Source: Chloroflexia bacterium
GTDB lineage: Bacteria; Chloroflexota; Chloroflexia; QHBQ01; JAICKM01
DNA length: 64,000 nt
Direction of reading: 5' to 3'
Assembly: GCA_038228295.1 (NCBI GenBank)
Contig: JBBRPH010000027.1
Span: 375 to 64,374 of the forward strand
Part shown: one piece after another, positions 9,921 through 32,577 of the stretch
Position numbering within the stretch: position 1 is the first letter of the stretch
Layout of the letters: every line of letters starts with the position of its first letter
The notes under the pieces: generated by a model
What the model was told of the DNA's origin: nothing
What the model saw: only the letters and a program-made list of their open reading frames with translations
Database searches by the model: none
Program-made: the position numbers and the translations under genes

Positions 9921-11393
9921 CTACGGTAGGTTATAGGCATCCCAGTGCCGGCGATCACTGTAAAGCGCAAACACAGGGTACGGCTGGTCGGCCCAGAGTA
10001 GATACCCGTTCTGGAAGGGCTGGGCCGCCGCATGAAACTGGCTGCCGCTTTGCAAGCGCGCCTGTGGCGACTCCTGGGTCGCCCCTAGGTCACTAGCTAC
10101 CGTCGGCTGATCGATCAGCAACTGCCGCAGGCTCGCGCCGGGGTCGGCATCGGATGCCGGCAACGGATCAGGATAGACCCGCCAACCACCCTGCGCGGCA
10201 CCCGTCGCCTCGCGCACCAGCACGAAAACCTGGCCGTGGGCGCTATCACGAAACAGATAGCCGCGTTGGAATTGTTGGATCGCCCCCGCCGGGACACCCA
10301 CTTCATAGGCAACCGTCGAGCAGCCCAGCCGGCGACCGACGGCGGGCCGCGCATATACCCCGCCGGTATACCCGCTCACCGGTAACACCCACGGACACGG
10401 CGTACCGGCCGGCAGCAGCGTAGGACTGGGAGTCGCCGTCGCTGCTGCGGGGGGTGAGGCGGTCACAGGGGATAAGATCGGCACCACGGCCGTAGCGGTA
10501 ACGCTGTTAACGGCCGGTACCGTCGCGGGGCGTATCCCGGTTGCCGTAGCCGTCGGGTTGCGGACCACCGTCACACTTATAAGCGGCCCGGCTGTAGCCG
10601 TAACTGGGGGTAGACGAGGTGGAGTAGGATCGGCCGTATGAACAGGAGTAGCCGGGAAGGCTGTAATTGTAGCACGACTAGCAACCATTGCTAGCGCAGT
10701 GGCTGTCGTGTCGGCAACAAAGGCCGTAGCTCTAGCCGAGACGGCTGTAGCTGTAGTGCGACTAACAACGGTTGCTAGTGCAGCGGGTGTACTGCTGGGC
10801 GTGGACAGCGGTGTAACAGGGGTTGGTTCAACAGTCAGCGTAACTTGCGCCGGCGCAGTTGCGGTGGTCGTCACAACAAGGCTCGTTGTGCTAGGCACGG
10901 ACGTGGGCACGTAGATCGAGGGTGGGGTCGGCGTAGCTGCGGCAGGTAGCAAATGGTTAAACCAGGCCGCCATTGCGCTGCTCACCCCGGCGATCAGCAG
11001 TAAGGCCAAGCCCAGCATAATACTGACCGTGCAACTTTTGCTGCCCAGCAGCGCTTGGAGCATGATCGGACGGCTGGGCGGGGCGGCCGGCGCATCAGAC
11101 GCGACCGGGGGCAGCGCCACCCCCAACTCCTCAGCCAGCGTACGCAACCGCCCGTTGGTCGGGTTTTCGGCCAGCGCCCCCTGGATCAACTCGTCCATCC
11201 GGCCCTGCGACTCAGCCCAATTAATCAGGTTGTATGCAGTGTCCTTCAGGCTGCCCGGCGGCACAATGGCGTCCAGCGACTCACCCAGCCACATCCGCAC
11301 TAGGCGCGCCAGGCTGCTGTGATCCGGAAAGGCGCTGCGGAGCGCGCTATCCAATGCCCGTACTTGGGCTGGAGTGAGAGGACTGGCCGCCAT
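9921..11393 (-). CDS. EAD1-like N-terminal domain + TM helix + Thr/Ala/Pro-rich stalk + extracellular domain
   Basis: LTPAQVRALDSALRSAFP..LARLVRMWLGESLDAI..AYNLINWAESQGRMDELIQGALAENPTN matches the effector-associated domain 1 pattern as recalled; one hydrophobic helix; low-complexity linker. Confidence 0.68.
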   Translation of the reverse strand: MAASPLTPAQVRALDSALRSAFPDHSSLARLVRMWLGESLDAIVPPGSLKDTAYNLINWAESQGRMDELIQGALAENPTNGRLRTLAEELGVALPPVASDAPAAPPSRPIMLQALLGSKSCTVSIMLGLALLLIAGVSSAMAAWFNHLLPAAATPTPPSIYVPTSVPSTTSLVVTTTATAPAQVTLTVEPTPVTPLSTPSSTPAALATVVSRTTATAVSARATAFVADTTATALAMVASRATITAFPATPVHTADPTPPRLPPVTATAGPLISVTVVRNPTATATGIRPATVPAVNSVTATAVVPILSPVTASPPAAATATPSPTLLPAGTPCPWVLPVSGYTGGVYARPAVGRRLGCSTVAYEVGVPAGAIQQFQRGYLFRDSAHGQVFVLVREATGAAQGGWRVYPDPLPASDADPGASLRQLLIDQPTVASDLGATQESPQARLQSGSQFHAAAQPFQNGYLLWADQPYPVFALYSDRRHWDAYNLP

Positions 11394-21644: not shown

Positions 21645-23498
21645 TCAGCGCACCACCGCCGTCACCCGCAACGCCGCGCCACACACTAGCCCCAACGCTG
21701 CCGCAATCGCCGGGGCCAACTCGCCCTGGATCGCATCACGCATATAGGCCGCCGGCACGCCCAGCACCGCCCGCCCGCCGGCCGGGTCCAGGCTCAACAA
21801 CACCGCATAGCGCAGCACTCGCCCATAAGTTTCGGCCGGCAGGCCCACCCGCAAATGGATTAACGCCGCCTGCCACAGCCGCCCACACGCTGCCCCGGCC
21901 AAGCCAGACTCGCCGGAAGCAGCAGTATCCTCAGCCGGTAACACAACCACAGCAGGCATTGCGCTCCCGACCGGCACAGCAAGCGGATTAACATTTTCCG
22001 CCAAAGTGCTTTGTGCTTCCGTGCGGCGCTGTGGGGCTAAAGCTGCAGCGCTTCGCGGCGCTTCGTGTCCCGGCGTTGCTTCAGGAGCCGACTCCGCCGA
22101 CCGCCCACGCCGCCGCACCAGGCTCGTAAAATAGGCGCCTGGCCGGCTCACGCGGCCTTTCGCTTGTGCCCGCAGCGTGGCTTGAATGGCCCACTCGTAC
22201 AGGTCGGGTCCGTGATCGGCCACACACTGCCGGTGCCACTCACGACTGCCTACATCGTTCAGTGCCGCAGTGCCCCAATCCAGCAGGGCCGTGGAGTCCT
22301 CCGCACTCAGCGGTGTTCCGGCCGAGGCCAGTGCGCCGTTAACGTTCGTAGATTCATCCGTTTTAACGGATTCACGATTAACGTTAACGAGTGTGCCCGT
22401 GAGTCCGCCTAGTGCGGACTCCTGTCCCAGGTCCACTCCGCCTAGTGCGGACTCCTTGCCCAGCGCCGCGCCTATACCCGCCTCTTCGCCGATCCTGCCT
22501 CCGCCCGATGCGGACTCGTTCGACTCCGCCCAATGCGGACTCCCCGTTCCGCCGACTCCGCCCGATGCGGACTCCATTTGCCGACCCTGCCCGATGGGCC
22601 ACGTCGTGCCGGTTTCGAGGCCGCACGGAGCGGACTCCTGCCGTACTTCTATAGCAAGCCCGATCTCCGCACTCGTAACGAGTCCGCTTGATGCGGAGTC
22701 CGCCTGGATCTCCATAATCCCCCCAGGTATACCCACTCCGCCTGCTGCGGACTCCCCTACCCCGGTTCCCTCCATTATAGGCACGGCACACGGGGGGTTA
22801 GATCCCCCTGTTTCCATTCCGTATTCAAACGTGCTTTGGCGCGCAGGCGCCAAGCGCGCACGATAACTGCCTGGTGCAGTTAGCCGCCGGCCGTCCACGA
22901 GCGTCGCCACGCCGGCGCGGTCCCGTGTGACACGATAGGCGCGGCCCAAGATAGTGGTCAAGCGTGTCAACTCCGTCGTGGGGCCGAGCGGGGCGAGCGG
23001 GATGGTTAGCCAGCCGGTGTGTTTGCGGGTCCAAACGTCGGCATCAAAGAGCAGATACTCCAGCAAGCCTAGCGATGGCAGTGGTAGTCCCCGTGTCACT
23101 CGGTACAACTTCTGCTTGCCGCGTGGAATCTCTACTTCTTCCACCTGCACCAAGCCGCAGGTCAGTAGCAGGTTGCTGTAGCGGGCAATCGTGTCCTGGG
23201 AGGTGTCCAAATAGGCGGCCAGTGCAGTCTGTGTGCAATGCGCCCACCCGAAATGAGGATGACCAGGGGTAGTCTCCTCAAAGCTGTGCAACGCCAGCAG
23301 CAGCCCCAACCCGGTCGGCTTCAGCAGTGGCCCCCACTCTCGCACCAGCGCGGGACTGATCTCGCCCACCGGTGGATAAGCGGATCGCGCCGCCGGGTGG
23401 GCCGTCCCTGCCGAGGTCGGCGAGGCGCTATGGGGGAATATAGTGGGCGCGCTCTCTTTTGCGCTAGGATCGCTGATAATCGCTGGTTTGCCGCGCAT
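21645..23498 (-). CDS. Putative replication initiator (N-terminal wHTH, central iteron-encoded region, C-terminal DnaA-N-like domain)
   Basis: CTQTALAAYLDTSQDTIARYSNLLLTCGLVQV wHTH; SRPGAYFTSLVRR motif; C-terminal LWQAALIHL..ETYGRVL..AVLGVPAAYMRDAIQGELAPAIAAAL resembles DnaA domain I; sits directly downstream of parAB. Confidence 0.72.
   Translation of the reverse strand: MRGKPAIISDPSAKESAPTIFPHSASPTSAGTAHPAARSAYPPVGEISPALVREWGPLLKPTGLGLLLALHSFEETTPGHPHFGWAHCTQTALAAYLDTSQDTIARYSNLLLTCGLVQVEEVEIPRGKQKLYRVTRGLPLPSLGLLEYLLFDADVWTRKHTGWLTIPLAPLGPTTELTRLTTILGRAYRVTRDRAGVATLVDGRRLTAPGSYRARLAPARQSTFEYGMETGGSNPPCAVPIMEGTGVGESAAGGVGIPGGIMEIQADSASSGLVTSAEIGLAIEVRQESAPCGLETGTTWPIGQGRQMESASGGVGGTGSPHWAESNESASGGGRIGEEAGIGAALGKESALGGVDLGQESALGGLTGTLVNVNRESVKTDESTNVNGALASAGTPLSAEDSTALLDWGTAALNDVGSREWHRQCVADHGPDLYEWAIQATLRAQAKGRVSRPGAYFTSLVRRRGRSAESAPEATPGHEAPRSAAALAPQRRTEAQSTLAENVNPLAVPVGSAMPAVVVLPAEDTAASGESGLAGAACGRLWQAALIHLRVGLPAETYGRVLRYAVLLSLDPAGGRAVLGVPAAYMRDAIQGELAPAIAAALGLVCGAALRVTAVVR
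22401..22754. repeat. Eight 21-bp quasi-palindromic iteron-like repeats inside the rep ORF
   Basis: Units (consensus GASTCCGC-N5-GCGGACTC) start at 22401, 22434, 22497, 22522, 22554, 22617, 22680 and 22734. Confidence 0.85.
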
Positions 23499-23583
23499 AG
23501 GTCAATCCTCGTATGAGGGTACATGACCGGCAGGCGGGCCGCACACAGAGTAAACGCTCCCCCTCCTATCGCCGCCGTTGCCC

Positions 23584-23612
23584 TTGACAAGGGATCAAAA
23601 CTGCGGTATGAT
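23584..23612 (+). promoter_or_regulatory. Sigma70 promoter, antisense to the parAB-rep direction
   Basis: TTGACA-17 bp-TATGAT with no protein ORF downstream on this strand. Confidence 0.75.
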
Positions 23613-23615
23613 AGG

Positions 23616-23805
23616 CGTGCAGGGTCTGGAAGCGGCTGTTAAAAGCCCTCCCACTACGCAAGTAGCGGACTTCCAGGATGACGCACTGACGGGAAGAGTT
23701 TACCGGCCACGCTTGCCAGGGTTAAGCCGATAGCTCCTCGGATGACAACAGTGTTGTGAAACCTGCTTTGAGAGGACTCGGGTGACGGCCGAGTCCTTTC
23801 TGTTT
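23616..23805 (+). ncRNA. Candidate small structured RNA (counter-transcript or 6S-like)
   Basis: Bracketed by a near-consensus promoter and a terminator; foldable (CTGGAAG/CTTCCAG, CTAC-GCAA-GTAG GNRA loop); no ORF. Confidence 0.55.
23770..23805 (+). terminator. Intrinsic terminator of the candidate sRNA
   Basis: GAGAGGACTCGG-GTGACGG-CCGAGTCCTTTC stem then TGTTT. Confidence 0.7.
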
Positions 23806-23891
23806 GCCCAGTTTCACCTCTTGCCCCAGGCTTTCCTCCATTACATATACAAAATCAAACGGCGCGCCGCCGCTACAGCCCTCGTGTACCA

Positions 23892-25130
23892 CTAACGTTT
23901 CCGGCTCTTCGGCACCGGCTGCACGTGCCGGGTTGTGATCGTCGGTGCTTCCGCTGTTTGGGCGGCGGCCGCTGGGATTATGGGGGCGCTGCCATACGGC
24001 AGCATCACGGCCAAATGATGCGGTAGCGGCTCGCCCTCGTAACCGGGATCGCCCAGCCGCTCTTTTTCCTCAATGTACTCCATCGCCGCACGTAACTGGG
24101 CGCGTAGCCGTACCATCGGCTCTAGCACCGCGTCCAGGTCGCGTACCTGCTGCCGGTTCAGCGGTACTTCCGTGTCTGCGCCCGGCTCGCCCAGGATCAT
24201 ATCGGCCTGCCGCAAAACGCCCATTAACAGTTCAATGCGTCGCTGCGGGTCGCCGTCCTCAAAGGCTGGTAGCACACTATCGGCCGTGGGTTCCGGGGGG
24301 ACGGGGGTGGCGGGTGTCGCCGGCTCCTTGTCGGTGCGGCCGGCTTTTCGGCGGGCCTGGGGTGGCCCGGCTCCCGCCTCGTCCCCGTTCAGCACCTGCG
24401 CCACAGCCCGCTCTACGGGCAGGCTCCGTTGCTCCTTCAGCAACTCCGCCGTCGCCAGTGTTTGCCGCCCGCTCAGGTCGTGGGTTTTGATCGCTTCAGC
24501 TAAGGCCAGTTGTACCGCCGGGTCATAGGCGACCCGTGTCAAGCCGCGCGTGCGGACTTCGGTTAATTCGCCGCCCAATAACTGCTCAATAGTTGGGTCG
24601 AGGTTCAGCATCGCCATAAAGTTTCGCACTGTGCGCCCTGACAGGCCCAACCGCTTTCCTACAAACTCATCCAACTCGTTTGATGACAGCACGGCGGCTT
24701 CCTGGGCCAGATCGTCGCGGATCTCGGTGATCGCTCGCGCAAACTCCAAATCGCTTAGGTCTTTGCGTTGACGGTTCTCGATCACTCGGTCCAGCCGCAT
24801 CTCGGTATCGGCCAGGTTCACCACTAGCGCCGGCACGGCATCCAGTCCTGCTTCGCGTGCCGCTCGTAGTCGCCGCTCGCCGGTCACGACGAAATAGCCG
24901 CCCTCATCGCGCCGCTGCACCGTGATGGGCTGCAAAATGCCTCGCTCACGCACCGACGCCGTGAGTTCGGCCATCGCTTCTGCATCGAAGTGCTTGCGTG
25001 GCTGGCGCGGATCAGTGTGGATCAAGTCGGTGTTGATCAGCTTGGCATCTTTAAGCGGCTGCACCCCCTCTTCGGGACTGGCCTGCATCAGCCCTTGCCA
25101 CGCACGTTGCGGCACGCGAGATCGGCTCAT
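23892..25130 (-). CDS. parB: ParB/RepB-family partition protein (plasmid-type, long C-terminus)
   Basis: QPRKHFD, GILQPITV, GERRLRAA, ENRQRKDL; the HTH region differs from Spo0J-type specificity residues. Confidence 0.9.
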   Translation of the reverse strand: MSRSRVPQRAWQGLMQASPEEGVQPLKDAKLINTDLIHTDPRQPRKHFDAEAMAELTASVRERGILQPITVQRRDEGGYFVVTGERRLRAAREAGLDAVPALVVNLADTEMRLDRVIENRQRKDLSDLEFARAITEIRDDLAQEAAVLSSNELDEFVGKRLGLSGRTVRNFMAMLNLDPTIEQLLGGELTEVRTRGLTRVAYDPAVQLALAEAIKTHDLSGRQTLATAELLKEQRSLPVERAVAQVLNGDEAGAGPPQARRKAGRTDKEPATPATPVPPEPTADSVLPAFEDGDPQRRIELLMGVLRQADMILGEPGADTEVPLNRQQVRDLDAVLEPMVRLRAQLRAAMEYIEEKERLGDPGYEGEPLPHHLAVMLPYGSAPIIPAAAAQTAEAPTITTRHVQPVPKSRKR

Positions 25131-25996
25131 GGCGCGGCCTGCCGTTTCGCCGGGCGCGGGGAGGTCGCGGCAGCATCCGGGCCACCGAAGCCCGGCGTGG
25201 TCGGCTCATCGGCCACAATCTCCGCCGCCAACTCCTGGTAGCATTTTGCTACCGGCGAATTACGCGCATACAGGCGGATCGGCACCCCCTGGCCCGGCGC
25301 TTCCGCCGCCACCACGCCGTAGCGGATGACCGACTTGAAAATGCGCCCGCGATAGACCTGCCCAATGTTCGTTAGGATCTCGCGGTTCAGATTGCTGCGC
25401 GAGTCGTACATCGTCGGCAGGATGCCCAGGATCTTGATCTCCGGATTAAGCTGCGCCACTTCGTTCACTGTGGTGATCAGCCGATGCACTCCGCGCAACG
25501 ACAGCAGGTGGGTCTGCAATGGGATCAGCACTTCGGTTGCCGCCACAAACGCATTCACGGTCAGCAGGGTCAAGCTCGGCGGGCAATCAATCAGGATGTA
25601 GTCGTAGCGGTCCAGCACCGGAGCCAGTGTGTCTTTCAGCACCCGTTCGCGCGTGTAGTTGCGGAACAGGTCCAACTCGGCCGCCGCTAGATCCAAGTTA
25701 GCCGGTACCAAGTCCATGCCCGCCACGGGGGTCGGGTGGATAATATCAAGGATGCTGCCCTCGCGCCGCACCATTACGTTGTACAGCGTCACATCTAAGT
25801 TGTCCGGATCTAGCCCCAGCGAGTAACTCGCCGCTGCTTGCGGGTCCAGGTCAATTAACAGCACACGCCGGCCCAGAACGGCCAGTTCGGCTCCCAGATT
25901 GACGGTGGTCGTGGTCTTACCCACGCCACCTTTCTGGTTGGCAATCGCGATAACCCGCGTCTTGGCTAGCGTCCGCCCCTGCCCAGTTTCGCTCAC
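25127..25996 (-). CDS. parA: ParA/Soj-family ATPase
   Basis: NQKGGVGKTTT, IDLDPQ, DCPPSL motifs; overlaps the parB start. Confidence 0.95.
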   Translation of the reverse strand: MSETGQGRTLAKTRVIAIANQKGGVGKTTTTVNLGAELAVLGRRVLLIDLDPQAAASYSLGLDPDNLDVTLYNVMVRREGSILDIIHPTPVAGMDLVPANLDLAAAELDLFRNYTRERVLKDTLAPVLDRYDYILIDCPPSLTLLTVNAFVAATEVLIPLQTHLLSLRGVHRLITTVNEVAQLNPEIKILGILPTMYDSRSNLNREILTNIGQVYRGRIFKSVIRYGVVAAEAPGQGVPIRLYARNSPVAKCYQELAAEIVADEPTTPGFGGPDAAATSPRPAKRQAAP

Positions 25997-26072
25997 GGCA
26001 ACCCTCTACTTAATAGTTAACCCAACTGCCTGCATCCGTCGCCCATAAACCCTGATCCGAACTCAGCACTCG

Positions 26073-26429
26073 TCAGGCCGCCGGGCTGCGACCTTCGCGG
26101 CTGATTACGCCCAACAGTTCTAACGCCCGGCGCAAGCTATTGGCGTGGAACTCTAATAAATAAGGATCGCGATCAATCAAGATGGCGCGAATCTCGACTA
26201 AGTGCAGCCCTGCCCGTTGCAACACCAGCACCCGCTCCAGCAGGTCTAGGTCGGCGGGCGTATACTGCCGCTTCCCTTCATCATCGGCCTCGCCGTCCGC
26301 TGCCCCGTCGCGCTGCACCCGCAAGTCTAACTGCTTCTCAATGTTGCGGAGTACGCGCGCCGTCGTCATTTGCCCTCGATCAGCCAACACTGCCAGGGCA
26401 TCTTGTGTACTGTAACCGCGACCTGTCAT
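26073..26429 (-). CDS. MerR-type HTH protein
   Basis: YSTQDA..TARVLRNIEKQLDL..GKRQYTPADLDLLERVLVLQRAGLHLVEIRAIL fits the MerR HTH/wing pattern. Confidence 0.7.
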   Translation of the reverse strand: MTGRGYSTQDALAVLADRGQMTTARVLRNIEKQLDLRVQRDGAADGEADDEGKRQYTPADLDLLERVLVLQRAGLHLVEIRAILIDRDPYLLEFHANSLRRALELLGVISREGRSPAA

Positions 26430-26612
26430 GTGCGTTCCCTGTGGTTCCTCTCGCCCAGCGCAGGCGACTATTTTCCCGTTGAGGCGTTTTGTCCCCTTAC
26501 ACAGCCAATTATAGCCGGTTTTTTTCCAGAGTCAAATCCCTACTACTCTAATGCGATGCCCATGTACTAACATATAGATAAGCCACCAGCCCCAACATGG
26601 TTGTCAGACCTA

Positions 26613-26641
26613 TTGACTTCATCTATGTTTTGCAGTAGTAT
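26613..26641 (+). promoter_or_regulatory. Sigma70 promoter of the ATPase-RHH pair
   Basis: TTGACT-17 bp-TAGTAT about 100 bp upstream of the ATG at 26743. Confidence 0.55.
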
Positions 26642-26742
26642 TAACATCAATGTCAAGGTGATAGCAGCGCATGGCAAGCGCAGGCCAGGTAAAAGAGACA
26701 CGCAATGACGGGCGCGTGGTCGGGTTTTATGAGAGGAACCGC

Positions 26743-27615
26743 ATGACGAGCCAGTACCAAAAACTAGCGATGGCTTTCTTCCATCCATCGTTGCGCGAAG
26801 ACCCCTTCAACCCCGAAGACAGCGCCCGCTATTTCTACCTCGCCGATCAGTACCGCGAAGCGCTCGACCTGCTCGTGCGCCACGTCTTGCGGCGTGGTGG
26901 CCTGTCCATCATCTACGGTGACGTCGGCCTCGGCAAAAGCAGCCTCATGGCAGTACTGCGTGGGCGCACGCGCAACAGTGACCTCTTCAAGAGCTTTGTC
27001 ATGGGTGAGATTCTTGATCCCTCGCAAGTTACGGATGCTGAGTTCACTCGCCAATTGCTGATCGCTTTCGACCAGAAGCCCTATGGTAGCACACGCTCCG
27101 AACTCAGCGAACAGTTCATCATCTTCCTGCAACGCCAGGCCCGTGAAGGTCGCGTGCCGCTGCTGGTGATTGATGAAGGCCAATGCCTTTCCTACGACGG
27201 CCTCGAACGGCTGCGGATCTTCCTCAACTATTCGCTGGACGACCACCGCATCCTCCAGATCGTCATCTTCGGCCAGCTTGAATTGCAGGAAAAGATCGCT
27301 AAAAAGCGCAATCTGGCCTCGCGCGTGCGGTTCACTATGACCCTTGCCCCGCTCAGTAGCGTTGCCCAGGTGCGCGAAATGATCGAATACCGCCTGCGGA
27401 CGGCGGGCCTGATTGACGGTGTGCAACTCTTCGCTGCCGGGGCCATTGAAGCTGTCTACAAACACTCCGGTGGCGTGCCGCGTCACATCGTGAACATTTG
27501 CTCGATGTGCTTCGACCAAGCACCGCGCCTCGACAAGCGCCAGATTGATGCCGACATGGTAGACCAGGTGGCCGCCCGCCTGATGCAAAAGGGAGCCTTG
27601 AACGATGGACGATGA
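26743..27615 (+). CDS. ExeA/GspA-like AAA+ ATPase (standalone)
   Basis: REDPF N-terminal motif, GDVGLGKS Walker A, LLVIDEGQ Walker B, IFGQLEL, SGGVPRHI; GAGAGGA RBS. Confidence 0.85.
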   Translation: MTSQYQKLAMAFFHPSLREDPFNPEDSARYFYLADQYREALDLLVRHVLRRGGLSIIYGDVGLGKSSLMAVLRGRTRNSDLFKSFVMGEILDPSQVTDAEFTRQLLIAFDQKPYGSTRSELSEQFIIFLQRQAREGRVPLLVIDEGQCLSYDGLERLRIFLNYSLDDHRILQIVIFGQLELQEKIAKKRNLASRVRFTMTLAPLSSVAQVREMIEYRLRTAGLIDGVQLFAAGAIEAVYKHSGGVPRHIVNICSMCFDQAPRLDKRQIDADMVDQVAARLMQKGALNDGR

Positions 27616-27997
27616 GAATTACAACCGCTCGTCACGCGGCTGGATCGAAGATCAGATGGCGAACGACCGCGCCCGTGAGGGCGAAGGCCGCCTCAAGCAG
27701 GTTGCCGTCTACTACTATCCCAAGCAACTCATCCCGTTGGACGAGCATCTCTCACGCCTCAACAGCCGCACACGTGCCTATGACGGCCTCAAAATCAACC
27801 GCAGCACCTATTTGCGGCTCTGCGGTGCGGTCCTGATGGATCTCCTTAGCGACCCGGCTTTCGCCGGTAATATGTTTGAGCGTCTTTACGATGAAGCGGA
27901 GCTGGAACATCGCCTGCGCGAACGTCTGCGTGACCTGCTTGAACTGCAACGCGCCTATCAGGAAGGTTCCCTCCGCCCCGTTCTGCCTGACTTGTAG
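27605..27997 (+). CDS. Small protein with possible ribbon-helix-helix DNA-binding motif
   Basis: KQVAVYY (strand), PKQLIPLDEHLSRL (helix), INRSTYLRL (helix); overlaps the ATPase stop. Confidence 0.55.
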   Translation: MDDENYNRSSRGWIEDQMANDRAREGEGRLKQVAVYYYPKQLIPLDEHLSRLNSRTRAYDGLKINRSTYLRLCGAVLMDLLSDPAFAGNMFERLYDEAELEHRLRERLRDLLELQRAYQEGSLRPVLPDL

Positions 27998-28406
27998 AAC
28001 CTGTATCCTCGGCATTGCTCACTGAACCCCTAATAGCATAATAAGCTAATATACTAATAAATCGGTCTGCCCGTACAGTTTCGTCTTTCCTGTATGTGCA
28101 ACGCTGTGCCCAATTAAACACAAACAACCTGCCCCCAACCTCTTGGAAAAATCCTCTCGTAACGCTATATTGCCCTAGGATGAGCTTTACATAATATACC
28201 AATATGGTTATTACTATTTTATCGGCAATTAGCTTTTCAGTGTGCTCAACAGTATAGGGTTTTACGGTAGCTTACTCAGATAATTGCTTGTGTTATGTAA
28301 ACCTAATTTATCGCAGCTTCTCACAATTGCCGTAAATCCTAGAATAGCGTGTCTATATATGCGTAACTGATCCATTTGTCTGCGTGTGCTGGCAATTGTT
28401 GCTAAT

Positions 28407-28495
28407 TATATTCTAGGAACTCGTGTTCCTAGAATATAGATGTAGTAATACGTTTGAATGCTAATCGCGTTAGGAACTCGTGTTCCTAACGCGAT
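28407..28495. repeat. Two perfect 32-bp palindromes sharing core TAGGAAC-TCGT-GTTCCTA
   Basis: 28407-28438 TATATTCTAGGAAC-TCGT-GTTCCTAGAATATA; 28464-28495 ATCGCGTTAGGAAC-TCGT-GTTCCTAACGCGAT. Confidence 0.9.
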
Positions 28496-28566
28496 AACCA
28501 TGTAAGCGGACGATAAAATGTTCCCTTAGCTGGGGCGTTGTGCTCCAAGCAATGGAGAGCATGGGG

Positions 28567-29154
28567 CTAGGCTCCCTTCAACGACCATACAGGCCCATGT
28601 CCAGGATAGATTATGGTGCCGTTGTGGGCACGGATTTTCGCCCAACTCTGTTGTACGGGGTCCAGCGGGTCGCCCATTGTAGCCCAGGGTGGCGTTAAGT
28701 CGCCGGTAAAGGCTTCGCCCGTATCCAGTACGAGCGTGAGGCTGTCGTCTGAATGCCCCGGTGTACTCACGGTTTCACCAAGGATGTCAATTCCTTGTAG
28801 GACGCTACGACTCTCTTCAGCAGTGACTATGAGGTTATCTGTCATGTCAATATCGCTATAGTGATCTTGTGGTTTCATGTGGCGTTGTAACAAGGGAATG
28901 CTTTGCTTTTGTGTTTCCAGCACGATGAGTTGGAGACCGAACTGTTTCAGATCCTGGGCGAGACCCGCATGATCAGGGTGATAGTGGGTGACAAGCAAAT
29001 AGGGGATGGTGGATAATTTGATGCCGGCGCGTTTGCACGTATGCTGAAATTGCGGTAGTGTGTTGGGCCAACCGGCATCAATCAGCAAATGCGGACGGTC
29101 CGTGGCGAGAACATAGTAGTTGGTGGATGCATAGCCCACATTGACGATATTCAT
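28567..29154 (-). CDS. MBL-fold metallo-hydrolase
   Basis: THYHPDHAG, TPGHSDDS, FTGD, PGHG motifs; lower GC than neighbours. Confidence 0.9.
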   Translation of the reverse strand: MNIVNVGYASTNYYVLATDRPHLLIDAGWPNTLPQFQHTCKRAGIKLSTIPYLLVTHYHPDHAGLAQDLKQFGLQLIVLETQKQSIPLLQRHMKPQDHYSDIDMTDNLIVTAEESRSVLQGIDILGETVSTPGHSDDSLTLVLDTGEAFTGDLTPPWATMGDPLDPVQQSWAKIRAHNGTIIYPGHGPVWSLKGA

Positions 29155-32561: not shown

Positions 32562-32577
32562 GGTTTCATGTGAAACA
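32562..32577. promoter_or_regulatory. Candidate chromosomal parS site
   Basis: GGTTTCATGTGAAACA matches TGTTTCACGTGAAACA at 14 of 16 positions; intergenic. Confidence 0.65.

What the first reader, a model, noticed from the sequence alone, without database searches (positions are those of the whole stretch)
21645..28500. repABC-like replicon module with a non-RepC initiator, embedded among chromosomal housekeeping genes
Seen: the order MerR-HTH > ParA > ParB > antisense sRNA unit > Rep-like ORF with internal iterons, plus a divergent ATPase/RHH pair, an AT-rich tract and twin palindromes. Known: alphaproteobacterial repABC replicons have this layout (partition genes, counter-transcript, initiator with the origin inside its gene). 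Inference: this is an analogous system in a probable Chloroflexota with a different initiator. The flanks are topA, lysA, ligase and ilvE, and no integrase or att repeat was seen. So it may be a chromid origin, a domesticated plasmid, or a DnaA-independent secondary origin.
Basis: partly seen in the sequence, partly recalled or inferred. Interest (0 to 1): 0.88.

Follow-up and report, generated by a model that had tools for sequence, protein, structure and literature searches.

The report
Plasmid-style replication-partition cassette in Chloroflexia chromosome
A conserved gene cassette in uncultured Chloroflexia is built like a plasmid's replication-and-segregation unit (ParA, ParB, an antisense control RNA and a new initiator-like protein that ends in a DnaA helicase-recruiting domain) but sits among housekeeping genes far from the normal origin, so it may mark a second origin or second chromosome, which the sequence data cannot yet show.

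Summary
Window 21645-28566 carries rep(-), parB(-), parA(-), a weak MerR-like gene(-), a divergent ExeA-like AAA+ ATPase plus a 130-aa protein, and a 41% GC tract with twin palindromes.

New evidence:
- The 617-aa Rep has a winged helix, a disordered linker, a 4-helix domain and a C-terminal DnaA domain I fold (TM 0.93 to 4tps).
- Eight TCCGC-N5-GCGGA palindromes in the linker-coding DNA form the only such cluster in the genome. One is read in another frame, so selection acts on the DNA.
- A ~185-nt antisense RNA lies between parB and rep, with an invariant promoter, a terminator and 11 compensatory pairs. A second family has a non-homologous unit at the same place.
- TAGGARC-N4-GYTCCTA palindromes are almost confined to the cassette, and one canonical parS lies 5-8 kb from the cassette's parB in three genomes.
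- The cassette and its lysA neighbour are inherited vertically in two families.

The true oriC (dnaA, 15 DnaA boxes, 6 parS) is on another contig. The assembly's strongest GC-skew switch falls at the cassette, but its polarity is opposite to that at oriC and relatives lack it.

Verdict: a repABC-like cassette with a new initiator family. Origin activity is unproven.

The parts
21645..23498 (-). rep: 617-aa initiator-like protein. Winged helix about residues 49-134, disordered repeat linker 212-393, 4-helix domain 399-468, C-terminal DnaA domain I fold 535-616.
   Evidence: No Pfam, NCBIfam or PHROG hit. In the AlphaFold model the domains reach pLDDT about 90. The best PDB match is B. subtilis DnaA domain I, 4tps_B, TM 0.93 and rmsd 1.2 A. 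Relatives score above the PF11638 cut-off and true DnaA matches the profile. Only 192 hits in 1.84 billion representative proteins.
22400..22755 (.). Array of 8 palindromic units, GAGTCCGC-A-N4-GCGGACTC (core TCCGC-N5-GCGGA), inside the linker-coding part of rep.
   Evidence: It is the only cluster in the 5.68-Mb genome. Ser is TCC in 33 of 36 motif copies in the family f1 orthologues; codons GCA and GGA recur by eye. One unit is read in another frame (GSPHWAES) in WIN and L015. Orthologues carry 4-9 units (one G074 unit lies outside the linker array), and five of six share the terminal 63/33-nt spacing.
23584..23612 (+). Promoter of the antisense RNA, TTGACA-17-TATGAT.
   Evidence: 11/12 consensus. 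Both hexamers are invariant in 10 sequences. An equivalent TTGACA-17-TATCAT is found in family f3.
23619..23805 (+). About 185-nt structured antisense RNA (counter-transcript candidate), complementary to the parB-rep intergenic transcript. It ends in a hairpin plus T-run.
   Evidence: Alignment A4. RNAalifold finds 14 compensatory pairs. Pair counts: 95% paired, 11 pairs changed on both sides against 4.9 +/- 1.4 in shuffles (0/500) and 1-3 in slid controls. G-U pairs favour this strand. No Rfam match. Transcript ends are inferred, not measured.
23892..25130 (-). parB (412 aa) with a GERRLRA motif and an HTH.
   Evidence: ParB_N 1.7e-27 and HTH_ParB 1.8e-6. TIGR00180 120.7 bits, above its cut-off.
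25127..25996 (-). parA (289 aa), a Soj-type deviant Walker ATPase.
   Evidence: AAA_31 1.2e-58 and CbiA. 72-89% identical across two families.
26073..26429 (-). 118-aa weakly MerR-like protein, first gene of the parAB operon.
   Evidence: MerR_1 22.8 bits against a cut-off of 21.6, covering only profile positions 31-66. TipAN match at E 0.0037. Conserved in every cassette.
26430..26670 (.). Divergent promoter region, 47% GC.
   Evidence: TTGACT-16-TATAAT on the minus strand (11/12) and two plus-strand candidates. GC content.
26671..27615 (+). ExeA/MuB-like AAA+ ATPase. The likely true start is M25 at 26743, giving 290 aa.
   Evidence: AAA_22 1.7e-16. TIGR03015 133.6 bits, below its 324.5 cut-off. 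phrog_296 'DNA transposition protein' 2.5e-18. Orthologue clade is at least 58% identical, then identity drops to 36% or less. Single copy in the genome.
27605..27997 (+). 130-aa protein overlapping the ATPase gene. Ribbon-helix-helix-like by pattern only.
   Evidence: 65-88% identical across families. No family or PDB match. The model is of low confidence.
27998..28566 (.). AT-rich non-coding tract, 41% GC with a minimum of 33% per 100 nt, between convergent genes.
   Evidence: The orthologous tract is also AT-poor-shifted in L015 (46%) and G074 (49%) but not in G062 (66%). No DnaA boxes. The per-gene GC3-skew sign flips across it.
28407..28508 (.). Twin palindromes with core TAGGAAC-TCGT-GTTCCTA at 28414-28431 and 28471-28488.
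   Evidence: TAGGARC-N4-GYTCCTA is conserved at the same place in L015, G074 and G062. Across the genomes searched it lies at the cassette (G000, G062, G074, G121, G130, G058), except for one G058 site on another contig and one site each in G121 and G130 on short contigs whose context was not examined. There are no hits to the reversed control pattern.
32562..32577 (.). Single chromosomal-type parS-like site, GGTTTCATGTGAAACA.
   Evidence: Its 14-nt core is identical to the six parS sites beside dnaA on C30. One such site lies about 5 kb from the cassette's parB in G062 and in G074 (about 8 kb in the window), and these are the only exact parS cores found outside the dnaA cluster (none was found beside dnaA in G074).

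Best explanation
This is a plasmid-type replication-and-partition cassette that has been inherited vertically inside a chromosome-sized replicon of an uncultured Chloroflexia lineage.

Proposed working:
1. The merR-like-parA-parB operon and rep are read in one direction.
2. A constitutive ~185-nt counter-transcript made from the opposite strand pairs with the parB-rep leader and limits Rep synthesis, giving copy or timing control as in repABC.
3. Rep binds DNA through its winged helix. Its C-terminal DnaA-domain-I module brings in the host helicase or a helicase-loading partner (DnaB, DnaD-like, or DnaA itself).
4. The 8-unit palindrome array inside rep is the binding platform for Rep (origin or operator) or for ParB (centromere).
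5. The conserved TAGGAAC palindromes beside the AT-rich tract are bound by the most conserved DNA-binding partner, the 130-aa protein, working with the ExeA/MuB-like AAA+ ATPase. They may mark the unwinding or loading site.
6. ParA/ParB, the nearby canonical parS, and perhaps the array segregate the locus.

The cassette would then serve as the maintenance unit of a second large replicon, or as a second origin without DnaA boxes in a dicentric chromosome.

Shown: the parts, their conservation, DNA-level selection on the repeats, the RNA structure and the DnaA-domain-I fold.
Inferred: every binding assignment, control by the RNA, and origin firing.
For: - Architecture.
- Cassette conservation: the six-gene cassette is conserved in families f1 and f3 and is always linked to parAB. 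AAA22, ParA and p130 are 65-91% identical, against 32-60% for Rep.
- Rep: its C-terminus matches the DnaA domain I fold (TM 0.93). Relatives have the architecture HTH_36/DnaD_N plus DnaA_N and match phage 'replication initiation' families. A Rep paralogue lies with ParAB in a mobile-element-like island on C70.
- Antisense RNA: invariant promoter, terminator and 11 compensatory pairs. Family f3 has a non-homologous antisense unit at the same position, with compensatory changes in its terminator.
- Repeat arrays: the array inside rep is selected at the DNA level. Family f3 carries a different array in and just downstream of rep, at the same locus.
- Cis elements: cassette-specific palindromes and a conserved single parS.
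- Skew: the strongest skew switch in the assembly lies at the AT tract and does not depend on gene strand.
- Inversion: a near-symmetric inversion is centred on the tract.
- Precedents: repABC has its oriV inside repC and an antisense RNA between repB and repC (PMC3155836). A. tumefaciens C58 fusion strains have a dicentric chromosome with an essential repABC ori2 (PMC11514494).
Against: - There is no direct evidence of initiation here.
- The skew polarity at the cassette (- to +) is opposite to that at the bona fide dnaA/DnaA-box/parS origin in G062, and weakly so in G000.
- No switch is seen at the cassette in G062, G074, G058 or G085.
- In G062 the cassette shares a 2.6-Mb contig with an rRNA operon and the canonical parB, so a separate replicon is unproven.
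- The repeats are palindromes, unlike classical direct iterons.
- Rep matches no characterised plasmid initiator and no PLSDB plasmid.
- The roles of the AAA+ ATPase and the 130-aa protein are unknown.
Confidence: 0.55

Rival explanations
1. Domesticated cassette that no longer fires as an origin. It would be a chromosomal organising or regulatory locus. An extra ParABS system positions this region. Rep, tethered at its palindromes, would use its DnaA-domain-I module to bind or titrate DnaA or its partners, acting like datA, DARS or SirA to regulate the single DnaA-dependent origin.
For: - Strict vertical inheritance with housekeeping neighbours.
- Very strong purifying selection on ParA, AAA22 and p130.
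- A canonical parS lies next to the cassette.
- DnaA domain I is a known protein-interaction hub that includes self-interaction (PMC5448010, PMC10201431).
- Skew gives no consistent origin signature across genomes.
Against: Antisense-RNA throttling of the initiator-like gene and a repeat array inside that gene are hallmarks of autonomous replicons. Both are conserved in two families even though their sequences have turned over. A Rep paralogue occurs in a mobile-element setting.
Confidence: 0.25
2. Terminus-associated system. The cassette marks or manages the fork-convergence region. Judged by the polarity seen at dnaA-oriC, the skew switch in this genome is of terminus type.
For: The skew goes + to - at dnaA-oriC and - to + at the cassette in WIN and L015.
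Against: - Genes diverge from the switch: 68% minus-strand on the left and 58% plus-strand on the right.
- No dif-like site was found at the tract.
- Relatives have no switch at the cassette.
- In G062 the cumulative minimum lies half a contig length away from the cassette, not at it.
- Nothing in the protein set resembles Tus, RTP, MatP or Xer.
Confidence: 0.08
3. Recently integrated mobile element (plasmid, ICE or plasmid-prophage) caught in the chromosome.
For: Plasmid-like gene content. The MBL gene next to the palindromes is a low-GC insertion absent from relatives. The genome holds several other ParAB pairs.
Against: - No integrase, att repeats, transfer genes or phage genes.
- The same neighbours (lysA, p148, 2-hydroxyacid dehydrogenase) recur in genomes whose Rep is only 45-60% identical.
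- GC content is native apart from the intergenic tract.
- No hit in viral contigs or PLSDB.
Confidence: 0.05
4. The twin palindromes are ordinary LexA (SOS) boxes and have nothing to do with the cassette.
For: Their core is GAAC-N4-GTTC. The genome has likely LexA boxes of the form TAGAAC-N4-GTTCTA.
Against: - Orthologous sites in G062, G121 and G130 read GAGC-N4-GCTC, which breaks the LexA core.
- The extended TAGGARC form is almost confined to the cassette in the genomes searched.
- The sites lie between convergent genes, not in a promoter.
Confidence: 0.07

Closest known systems
repABC replication-partition operons of alphaproteobacterial plasmids and chromids
   Same: Both have the order ParA-type ATPase, ParB-type protein, an antisense RNA gene in the B-C intergenic region, then the initiator gene. 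In both, cis-acting DNA lies inside the initiator gene (PMC3155836) and palindromic centromere sites sit at variable positions (PMC9040568). repABC units can also sit in a dicentric chromosome beside a DnaA origin (PMC11514494).
   Different: - The initiator here is unrelated to RepC: no Pfam match, and a winged helix plus DnaA domain I instead.
- The RNA is about 185 nt and matches no Rfam ctRNA family.
- ParA and ParB fall below the RepA and RepB equivalog cut-offs.
- Extra conserved genes are present: the MerR-like gene, the ExeA-like AAA+ ATPase and the 130-aa protein.
- The array consists of palindromes, whereas p42d repC has an A+T-rich region without iterons.
- The host phylum is Chloroflexota, while repABC is described as exclusive to alpha-proteobacteria (PMC7610768 abstract).
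Iteron-type plasmid initiators (RepA/RepE/pi/TrfA) and their origins
   Same: A winged-helix DNA-binding initiator, repeated binding sites, an adjacent AT-rich tract, and direct recruitment of the host helicase (reviewed in PMC4980987).
   Different: There is no Rep_3 or other initiator-family match. The repeats are inverted, not direct, and lie inside the gene. The helicase-recruiting module is a DnaA domain I fold.
DnaA (domain I only) and DnaD-like or phage replication organisers
   Same: The C-terminal 80 residues adopt the DnaA domain I fold. Wider relatives combine HTH_36/DnaD_N with DnaA_N and match phage replication-initiation PHROGs.
   Different: There is no AAA+ domain III and no domain IV. 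The domain I module is C-terminal. The window's own protein does not reach any DnaD or phage family threshold.
Chromosomal ParABS (Soj/Spo0J-parS)
   Same: ParA and ParB carry the canonical motifs, and a canonical parS lies 5-8 kb from the cassette's parB.
   Different: This is a second pair. The canonical pair is on C13 and the parS cluster is beside dnaA on C30. ParB is longer (412 aa) and is coupled to a Rep-like gene.

Membership tests
repABC | RepC-family initiator as the third gene | tested here: not met
   No Pfam or NCBIfam match of any kind for the 617-aa protein at E <= 0.01, nor for its three parts at E <= 10 apart from weak MarR_2 and DnaA_N hits.
repABC | RepA and RepB equivalogs (TIGR03453, TIGR03454) | tested here: not met
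   ParA scores 123.4 bits against a cut-off of 348. ParB scores 59.4 bits against a cut-off of 201.5. They are generic ParA and ParB, not RepA/RepB equivalogs.
repABC | Antisense (counter-transcribed) RNA gene between the B gene and the initiator gene | tested here: met
   Conserved promoter, structured body and terminator on the opposite strand, and a positional equivalent in family f3. It is not homologous to Rfam ctRNA families. Transcription itself was not tested.
repABC | Origin of replication located inside the initiator gene | not testable with these tools
   A DNA-level palindrome array lies inside rep.
repABC | Occurrence in Alphaproteobacteria | tested here: not met
   All loci come from 'Chloroflexia bacterium' MAGs. 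15 of 301 genomes of the class carry a match at E <= 1e-5; 13 of them, in two families of one order, carry the Rep-like gene, and the other two are DnaA N-terminal matches in family f6.
Iteron plasmid Rep (Rep_3, RepE, TrfA types) | Sequence membership in a known initiator family | tested here: not met
   No Pfam, NCBIfam or PHROG hit. No tblastn hit in 72,556 plasmids.
Iteron plasmid Rep (Rep_3, RepE, TrfA types) | Directly repeated iterons next to an AT-rich unwinding element | tested here: inconclusive
   Eight repeated units are present, but each is an inverted repeat. The AT-rich tract lies 5 kb away, beside different palindromes.
DnaA | Domain I fold | tested here: met
   Foldseek top hits are 4tps_B and 4tps_D, with TM 0.93 and 0.84. 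The secondary structure is alpha-alpha-beta-beta-alpha-beta.
DnaA | AAA+ domain III (PF00308) and DNA-binding domain IV | tested here: not met
   No Bac_DnaA match in the protein. The genome's DnaA is on C30.
ParABS partition system | Deviant Walker A ParA, ParB with ParB_N/HTH and GERRxRA, and a palindromic parS nearby | tested here: met
   the sequence, and the parS-like site at 32562. Which ParB binds which site was not tested.
ExeA/GspA and XrtA-associated ATPase (TIGR03015) | Score above the equivalog cut-off, and a secretion or PEP-CTERM gene context | tested here: not met
   133.6 bits against a cut-off of 324.5. No secretion genes are nearby. It is a member of the AAA_22 superfamily only.
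Oriented replication origin by GC skew | A strand-asymmetry switch of the same polarity as at the genome's known origin, conserved in relatives | tested here: not met
   A switch is present and is the strongest in the assembly. Its polarity is opposite to that at dnaA-oriC, and it is absent at the cassette in G062, G074, G058 and G085.

The most novel reading that the evidence does not exclude
A clade of Chloroflexia maintains a second origin/centromere, on a multi-megabase second chromosome or within a dicentric chromosome. It would be run by a previously undescribed initiator family (winged helix plus a C-terminal DnaA domain I that recruits the helicase without DnaA boxes). A ~185-nt counter-transcript would throttle the initiator, and an ExeA/MuB-like AAA+ ATPase with a small DNA-binding partner would assist. 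This would be an independent, non-homologous reinvention of the repABC design outside the Alphaproteobacteria.
Probability: 0.4. Interest if true: 0.85.

Novelty: new variant of a known kind. Interest (0 to 1): 0.72.

Why it matters
If the cassette is active, three things follow.
- It would be a repABC-style coupled replication-partition unit with antisense control outside the Alphaproteobacteria, to which repABC replicons have been described as exclusive (PMC7610768).
- It would define a new initiator family in which DnaA's helicase- and partner-binding domain is grafted onto a plasmid-type DNA binder.
- It would show how large secondary replicons, or dicentric chromosomes, are maintained in Chloroflexota.

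It also provides a compact, well-delimited set of parts that could be tested as a replicon for a phylum with almost no genetic tools. These parts are a 7-kb cassette, a conserved RNA and three classes of cis sites.

Even if the cassette is domesticated, a ParAB-linked protein carrying DnaA domain I would be a new kind of link between segregation and initiation control.

Tried and rejected
- **DnaA boxes in the window.** There is no cluster: 12 single near-matches against 5.9 expected. The clusters lie on C30.
- **Rfam on 20.5-30 kb at E <= 1.** Nothing found.
- **PLSDB and IMG/VR.** No hits for Rep or for the RNA hairpin.
- **PDB sequence searches.** Uninformative for the ATPase, p130 and the MerR-like protein.
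- **AlphaFold of p130.** pLDDT 58.6, so no fold search was run on it.
- **Polarity calibration by gene orientation in G000.** There is no correlation (r = -0.006 over 185 blocks), so it could not settle the sign.
- **dif-site search.** It was swamped by an abundant TTATGTCAACT motif, and no convincing dif was found at the tract.
- **Circularity of G062:C2.** Joining the contig ends was inconclusive.
- **rRNA and L2 positions in G062.** They do not resolve the replicon structure.
- **nhmmer with the f1 RNA profile.** It found only the promoter in family f3. The f3 unit was then found by position.
- **LexA-box reading of the twin palindromes.** Considered and largely rejected.

Full report
**1. 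What is there**

The window is contig C27 (positions 375-64374) of a 5.68-Mb, 177-contig metagenome-assembled genome. Relatives are all labelled 'Chloroflexia bacterium' MAGs.

Reading leftwards from 26429, one operon encodes:
- a 118-aa protein with a marginal MerR_1 match (22.8 bits, half the HTH only);
- ParA (AAA_31, 1.2e-58);
- ParB (ParB_N, 1.7e-27; TIGR00180, 120.7 bits).

After a 393-nt spacer comes a 617-aa ORF with no match in Pfam, NCBIfam or PHROGs.

Reading rightwards from a 241-nt, 47% GC promoter region are an AAA_22 ATPase and an overlapping 130-aa ORF. The ATPase is ExeA-like (TIGR03015, 133.6 bits, below its cut-off) and also matches phrog_296, 'DNA transposition protein' (2.5e-18).

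Next is a 569-nt tract of 41% GC between convergent genes. It holds two palindromes that share the core TAGGAACTCGTGTTCCTA.

The flanks are topA, an SLH amidase, an S8 protease, lysA, a 2-hydroxyacid dehydrogenase and an ATP-dependent ligase. There is no integrase, and the only tRNA is 26 kb away.

**2. The Rep-like protein**

An AlphaFold model built on 12 homologues gives three confident modules separated by disorder:
- a winged helix at residues 49-134;
- a four-helix domain at 399-468 (pLDDT about 90);
- an alpha-alpha-beta-beta-alpha-beta domain at 535-616 (pLDDT about 90).

Foldseek's best PDB hits are B. subtilis DnaA domain I, 4tps_B and 4tps_D (TM 0.93 and 0.84, rmsd 1.2-1.3 A). The N-terminal part matches MarR/ArsR winged helices.

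A profile search of 1.84 billion representative proteins found only 192 hits. Full-length relatives are rare. The C-terminal module recurs at the C-terminus of proteins that carry HTH_36 or DnaD_N at the N-terminus and that score above the DnaA_N cut-off. It also matches the N-terminus of true DnaA (where it hits the first gene of a relative's contig 1). One such relative matches phage 'replication initiation' and 'DnaD-like helicase loader' PHROGs.

A 437-aa paralogue with the same layout sits on contig C70. It lies beside ParA, ParB, a P22-antirepressor-like gene and an Xre gene, which is a mobile-element-like setting.

No PLSDB plasmid encodes a detectable relative. Rep is therefore a new family. 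Its domain logic, a DNA binder plus the DnaA module that contacts helicase or loader (PMC5448010, PMC10201431), fits an initiator or an initiation adaptor.

**3. The repeats inside rep are DNA elements**

Eight units of GAGTCCGC-A-N4-GCGGACTC lie at 22400-22755, in the DNA that encodes the disordered linker. The core TCCGC-N5-GCGGA occurs 19 times in the whole genome, and seven of those lie in 334 bp here. This is the only cluster, and control palindromes show none.

Across six orthologues there are 4-9 exact units each (one G074 unit lies near the 5' end of the gene, outside the linker). Ser is TCC in 33 of 36 motif copies although TCC is a minority Ser codon, and the codons GCA and GGA recur at fixed places by eye. 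The two encoded residues over the spacer vary freely. In WIN and L015 one intact unit is read in another frame, giving GSPHWAES and GSPRGAES. The last two spacings, 63 and 33 nt, are shared by five orthologues.

Family f3 orthologues lack this motif. At the same locus, in and just downstream of rep, they carry a different array: 8 x TGTTTCAC-N2-GTGAACA in G085 (five units inside the ORF, three after it) and 5 x TGTGCCAC-AA-GTGAACA in G058.

Arrays that turn over in sequence but keep their position are what one expects for sites co-evolving with a binding protein. Each unit is an inverted repeat, and the f3 units resemble parS half-sites. The binder could therefore be Rep (origin or operator) or ParB (centromere). 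This question is open.

**4. The antisense RNA**

The parB-rep spacer is far better conserved than the flanking genes. On the strand opposite to rep, both hexamers of TTGACA-17-TATGAT (23584-23612) are invariant in ten sequences. The unit ends in an invariant hairpin followed by a T-run near 23805.

RNAalifold predicts a multi-helix fold. On that fold 95% of cells pair. Eleven pairs show changes on both sides, against 4.9 +/- 1.4 in shuffles (0 of 500) and 1-3 when partners are slid. Several A-U/G-U alternations favour this strand.

Rfam has no match. Four metagenome contigs carry the hairpin and no viral contig does.

Family f3 has no detectable sequence homologue. At the same position and on the same strand it has its own invariant TTGACA-17-TATCAT, a conserved body of about 150 nt, and a terminator whose stem shows compensatory changes.

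A counter-transcript between the B gene and the initiator gene is the signature of repABC control (PMC3155836).

**5. Other cis sites**

TAGGARC-N4-GYTCCTA is conserved downstream of the 130-aa gene in WIN, L015, G074 and G062. In seven genomes searched it is almost confined to the cassette. In some genomes it also occurs inside parB or upstream of rep. One G058 site is on another contig, and one site each in G121 and G130 sits on a short contig of unknown context. The reversed control pattern gave no hits.

Its core resembles this genome's likely LexA boxes, TAGAAC-N4-GTTCTA. However, the orthologous GAGC variants break the LexA core, so I read it as cassette-specific. The site is conserved across both families, as are p130, the ATPase and ParA. 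p130 is therefore my candidate binder. This is inference.

The canonical parS (TGTTTCAYRTGAAACA) occurs six times beside dnaA on C30 and once at window 32562. In G062 and G074 a single exact parS core also lies about 5 kb from the cassette's parB (about 8 kb in the window), and these are the only sites outside the dnaA cluster.

**6. Where the real origin is, and what skew says**

dnaA is on C30. It is flanked by clusters of 9 and 6 DnaA boxes and by the six parS sites. The window has no DnaA-box cluster.

*In the window.* C27 at about 29 kb shows the strongest - to + skew switch in the assembly: 0.135 against a next best of 0.071, or 4.7 sd. Per-gene third-position skew is negative for nearly all genes on the left and positive for most on the right, whatever their strand. 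It flips between p130 (-0.28) and the genes to its right (+0.26 and +0.31). L015 behaves the same way.

*At the true origin.* In G062 the switch at the bona fide dnaA origin has the opposite polarity. It goes from + on the left to - on the right, sustained over roughly 300 kb, and this persists after separating plus-strand and minus-strand genes. C30 shows the same sign weakly.

*In relatives.* The orthologous cassette lies inside a +0.1 to +0.36 skew island in G074. It has weak uniform skew in G062 and G085 and uniform skew of the G074 sign in G058.

*Two suggestive points.* The 12-kb block from rep to the dehydrogenase is inverted relative to its flanks between WIN/L015 and G062/G074. The breakpoints lie 6.35 and 5.3 kb either side of the AT tract, the kind of near-symmetric inversion seen around fork start or end points. 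In G062 the cumulative-skew minimum of the 2.61-Mb contig lies at about 0.43 Mb, half a contig length from the cassette.

Neither point is decisive. Skew therefore neither establishes nor excludes an origin here.

**7. Evolutionary setting**

Fifteen of 301 genomes of the class gave a match (E <= 1e-5). Thirteen of them, in two families of one order, carry the Rep-like gene. The other two are matches of the C-terminal domain to DnaA in a third family (f6). No genome of the sister family f2 among those listed has it.

The six genes always occur together. In family f1 they lie next to p148 (absent in L015), lysA and the dehydrogenase. AAA22, ParA and p130 are 65-91% identical, against 32-60% for Rep. 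The ATPase, p130 and the MerR-like gene are single-copy in this genome.

In G062 the cassette lies at 1.74 Mb of a 2.61-Mb contig. That contig also carries an rRNA operon and the canonical parB, while dnaA is on a 656-kb contig. The cassette is thus an old resident of a chromosome-sized replicon, not a recent insertion.

**8. Verdict**

The cassette has the organisation and control logic of a repABC-type replicon but is built from non-homologous parts and carries extra conserved genes.

I put 0.55 on it being a working maintenance unit, either a second origin/centromere or the origin of a second large replicon. I put 0.25 on a domesticated organiser or initiation regulator. The terminus-system and mobile-element readings receive the remaining small shares.

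It fails membership of repABC, of iteron Rep families and of DnaA proper, and it is best filed as a new variant of a known kind.

Noticed in passing
G000 genome-wide; window about 28290 (GTTATGTAAAC): The motif TTATGT[CA]AA[CG]T occurs about 55 times in the genome, far above expectation for an 11-mer in a 63% GC genome. One copy in the AT tract is conserved in L015. Its function is unknown; it may be a promoter or regulatory element.
   Followed up: no
G062:C3:62-472 kb and G000:C30: At the canonical dnaA/DnaA-box/parS origin the GC skew runs from + to -, which is the reverse of the textbook polarity. Coding strands are also C-rich at third codon positions (mean -0.057).
   Followed up: partly
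G074:C39:60-100 kb (L119, L125): A 40-kb island of very strong positive GC skew (up to 0.36 per kb, with GC3 skew of 0.3-0.6) is centred on the cassette and its parS. The sign is opposite to that of the same genes in the window. Unexplained.
   Followed up: partly
G000:C70:3.9-11.5 kb (L159): A mobile-element-like island carries a P22-antirepressor-like gene, Xre, ParB, ParA, a 555-aa unknown protein and a 437-aa paralogue of Rep. Its GC content is 59%.
   Followed up: partly
G000:C93:8.3-14.3 kb: A short contig carries two ParB_N genes, a ParA and a cluster of 5 DnaA boxes. It may be another replicon or element.
   Followed up: no
G000: C1:43645, C26:8080, C40:20028, C43:37273, C51:4077, C98:6286: Palindromes of the form TAGAAC-N4-GTTCTA look like this organism's LexA boxes.
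   Followed up: no
window 28567-29154: A metallo-beta-lactamase-fold gene in a 46% GC kilobase is absent from all relatives. It appears to be a local insertion right beside the palindromes.
   Followed up: no
window 9921-11393 (-): A 490-aa protein has an N-terminal EAD1 (effector-associated domain 1) and no other match.
   Followed up: no
L117:15658-16834 and L118:8496-9269: In family f3 the rep genes carry arrays of parS-like units (TGTTTCAC-N2-GTGAACA) in place of the TCCGC-N5-GCGGA units of family f1.
   Followed up: partly
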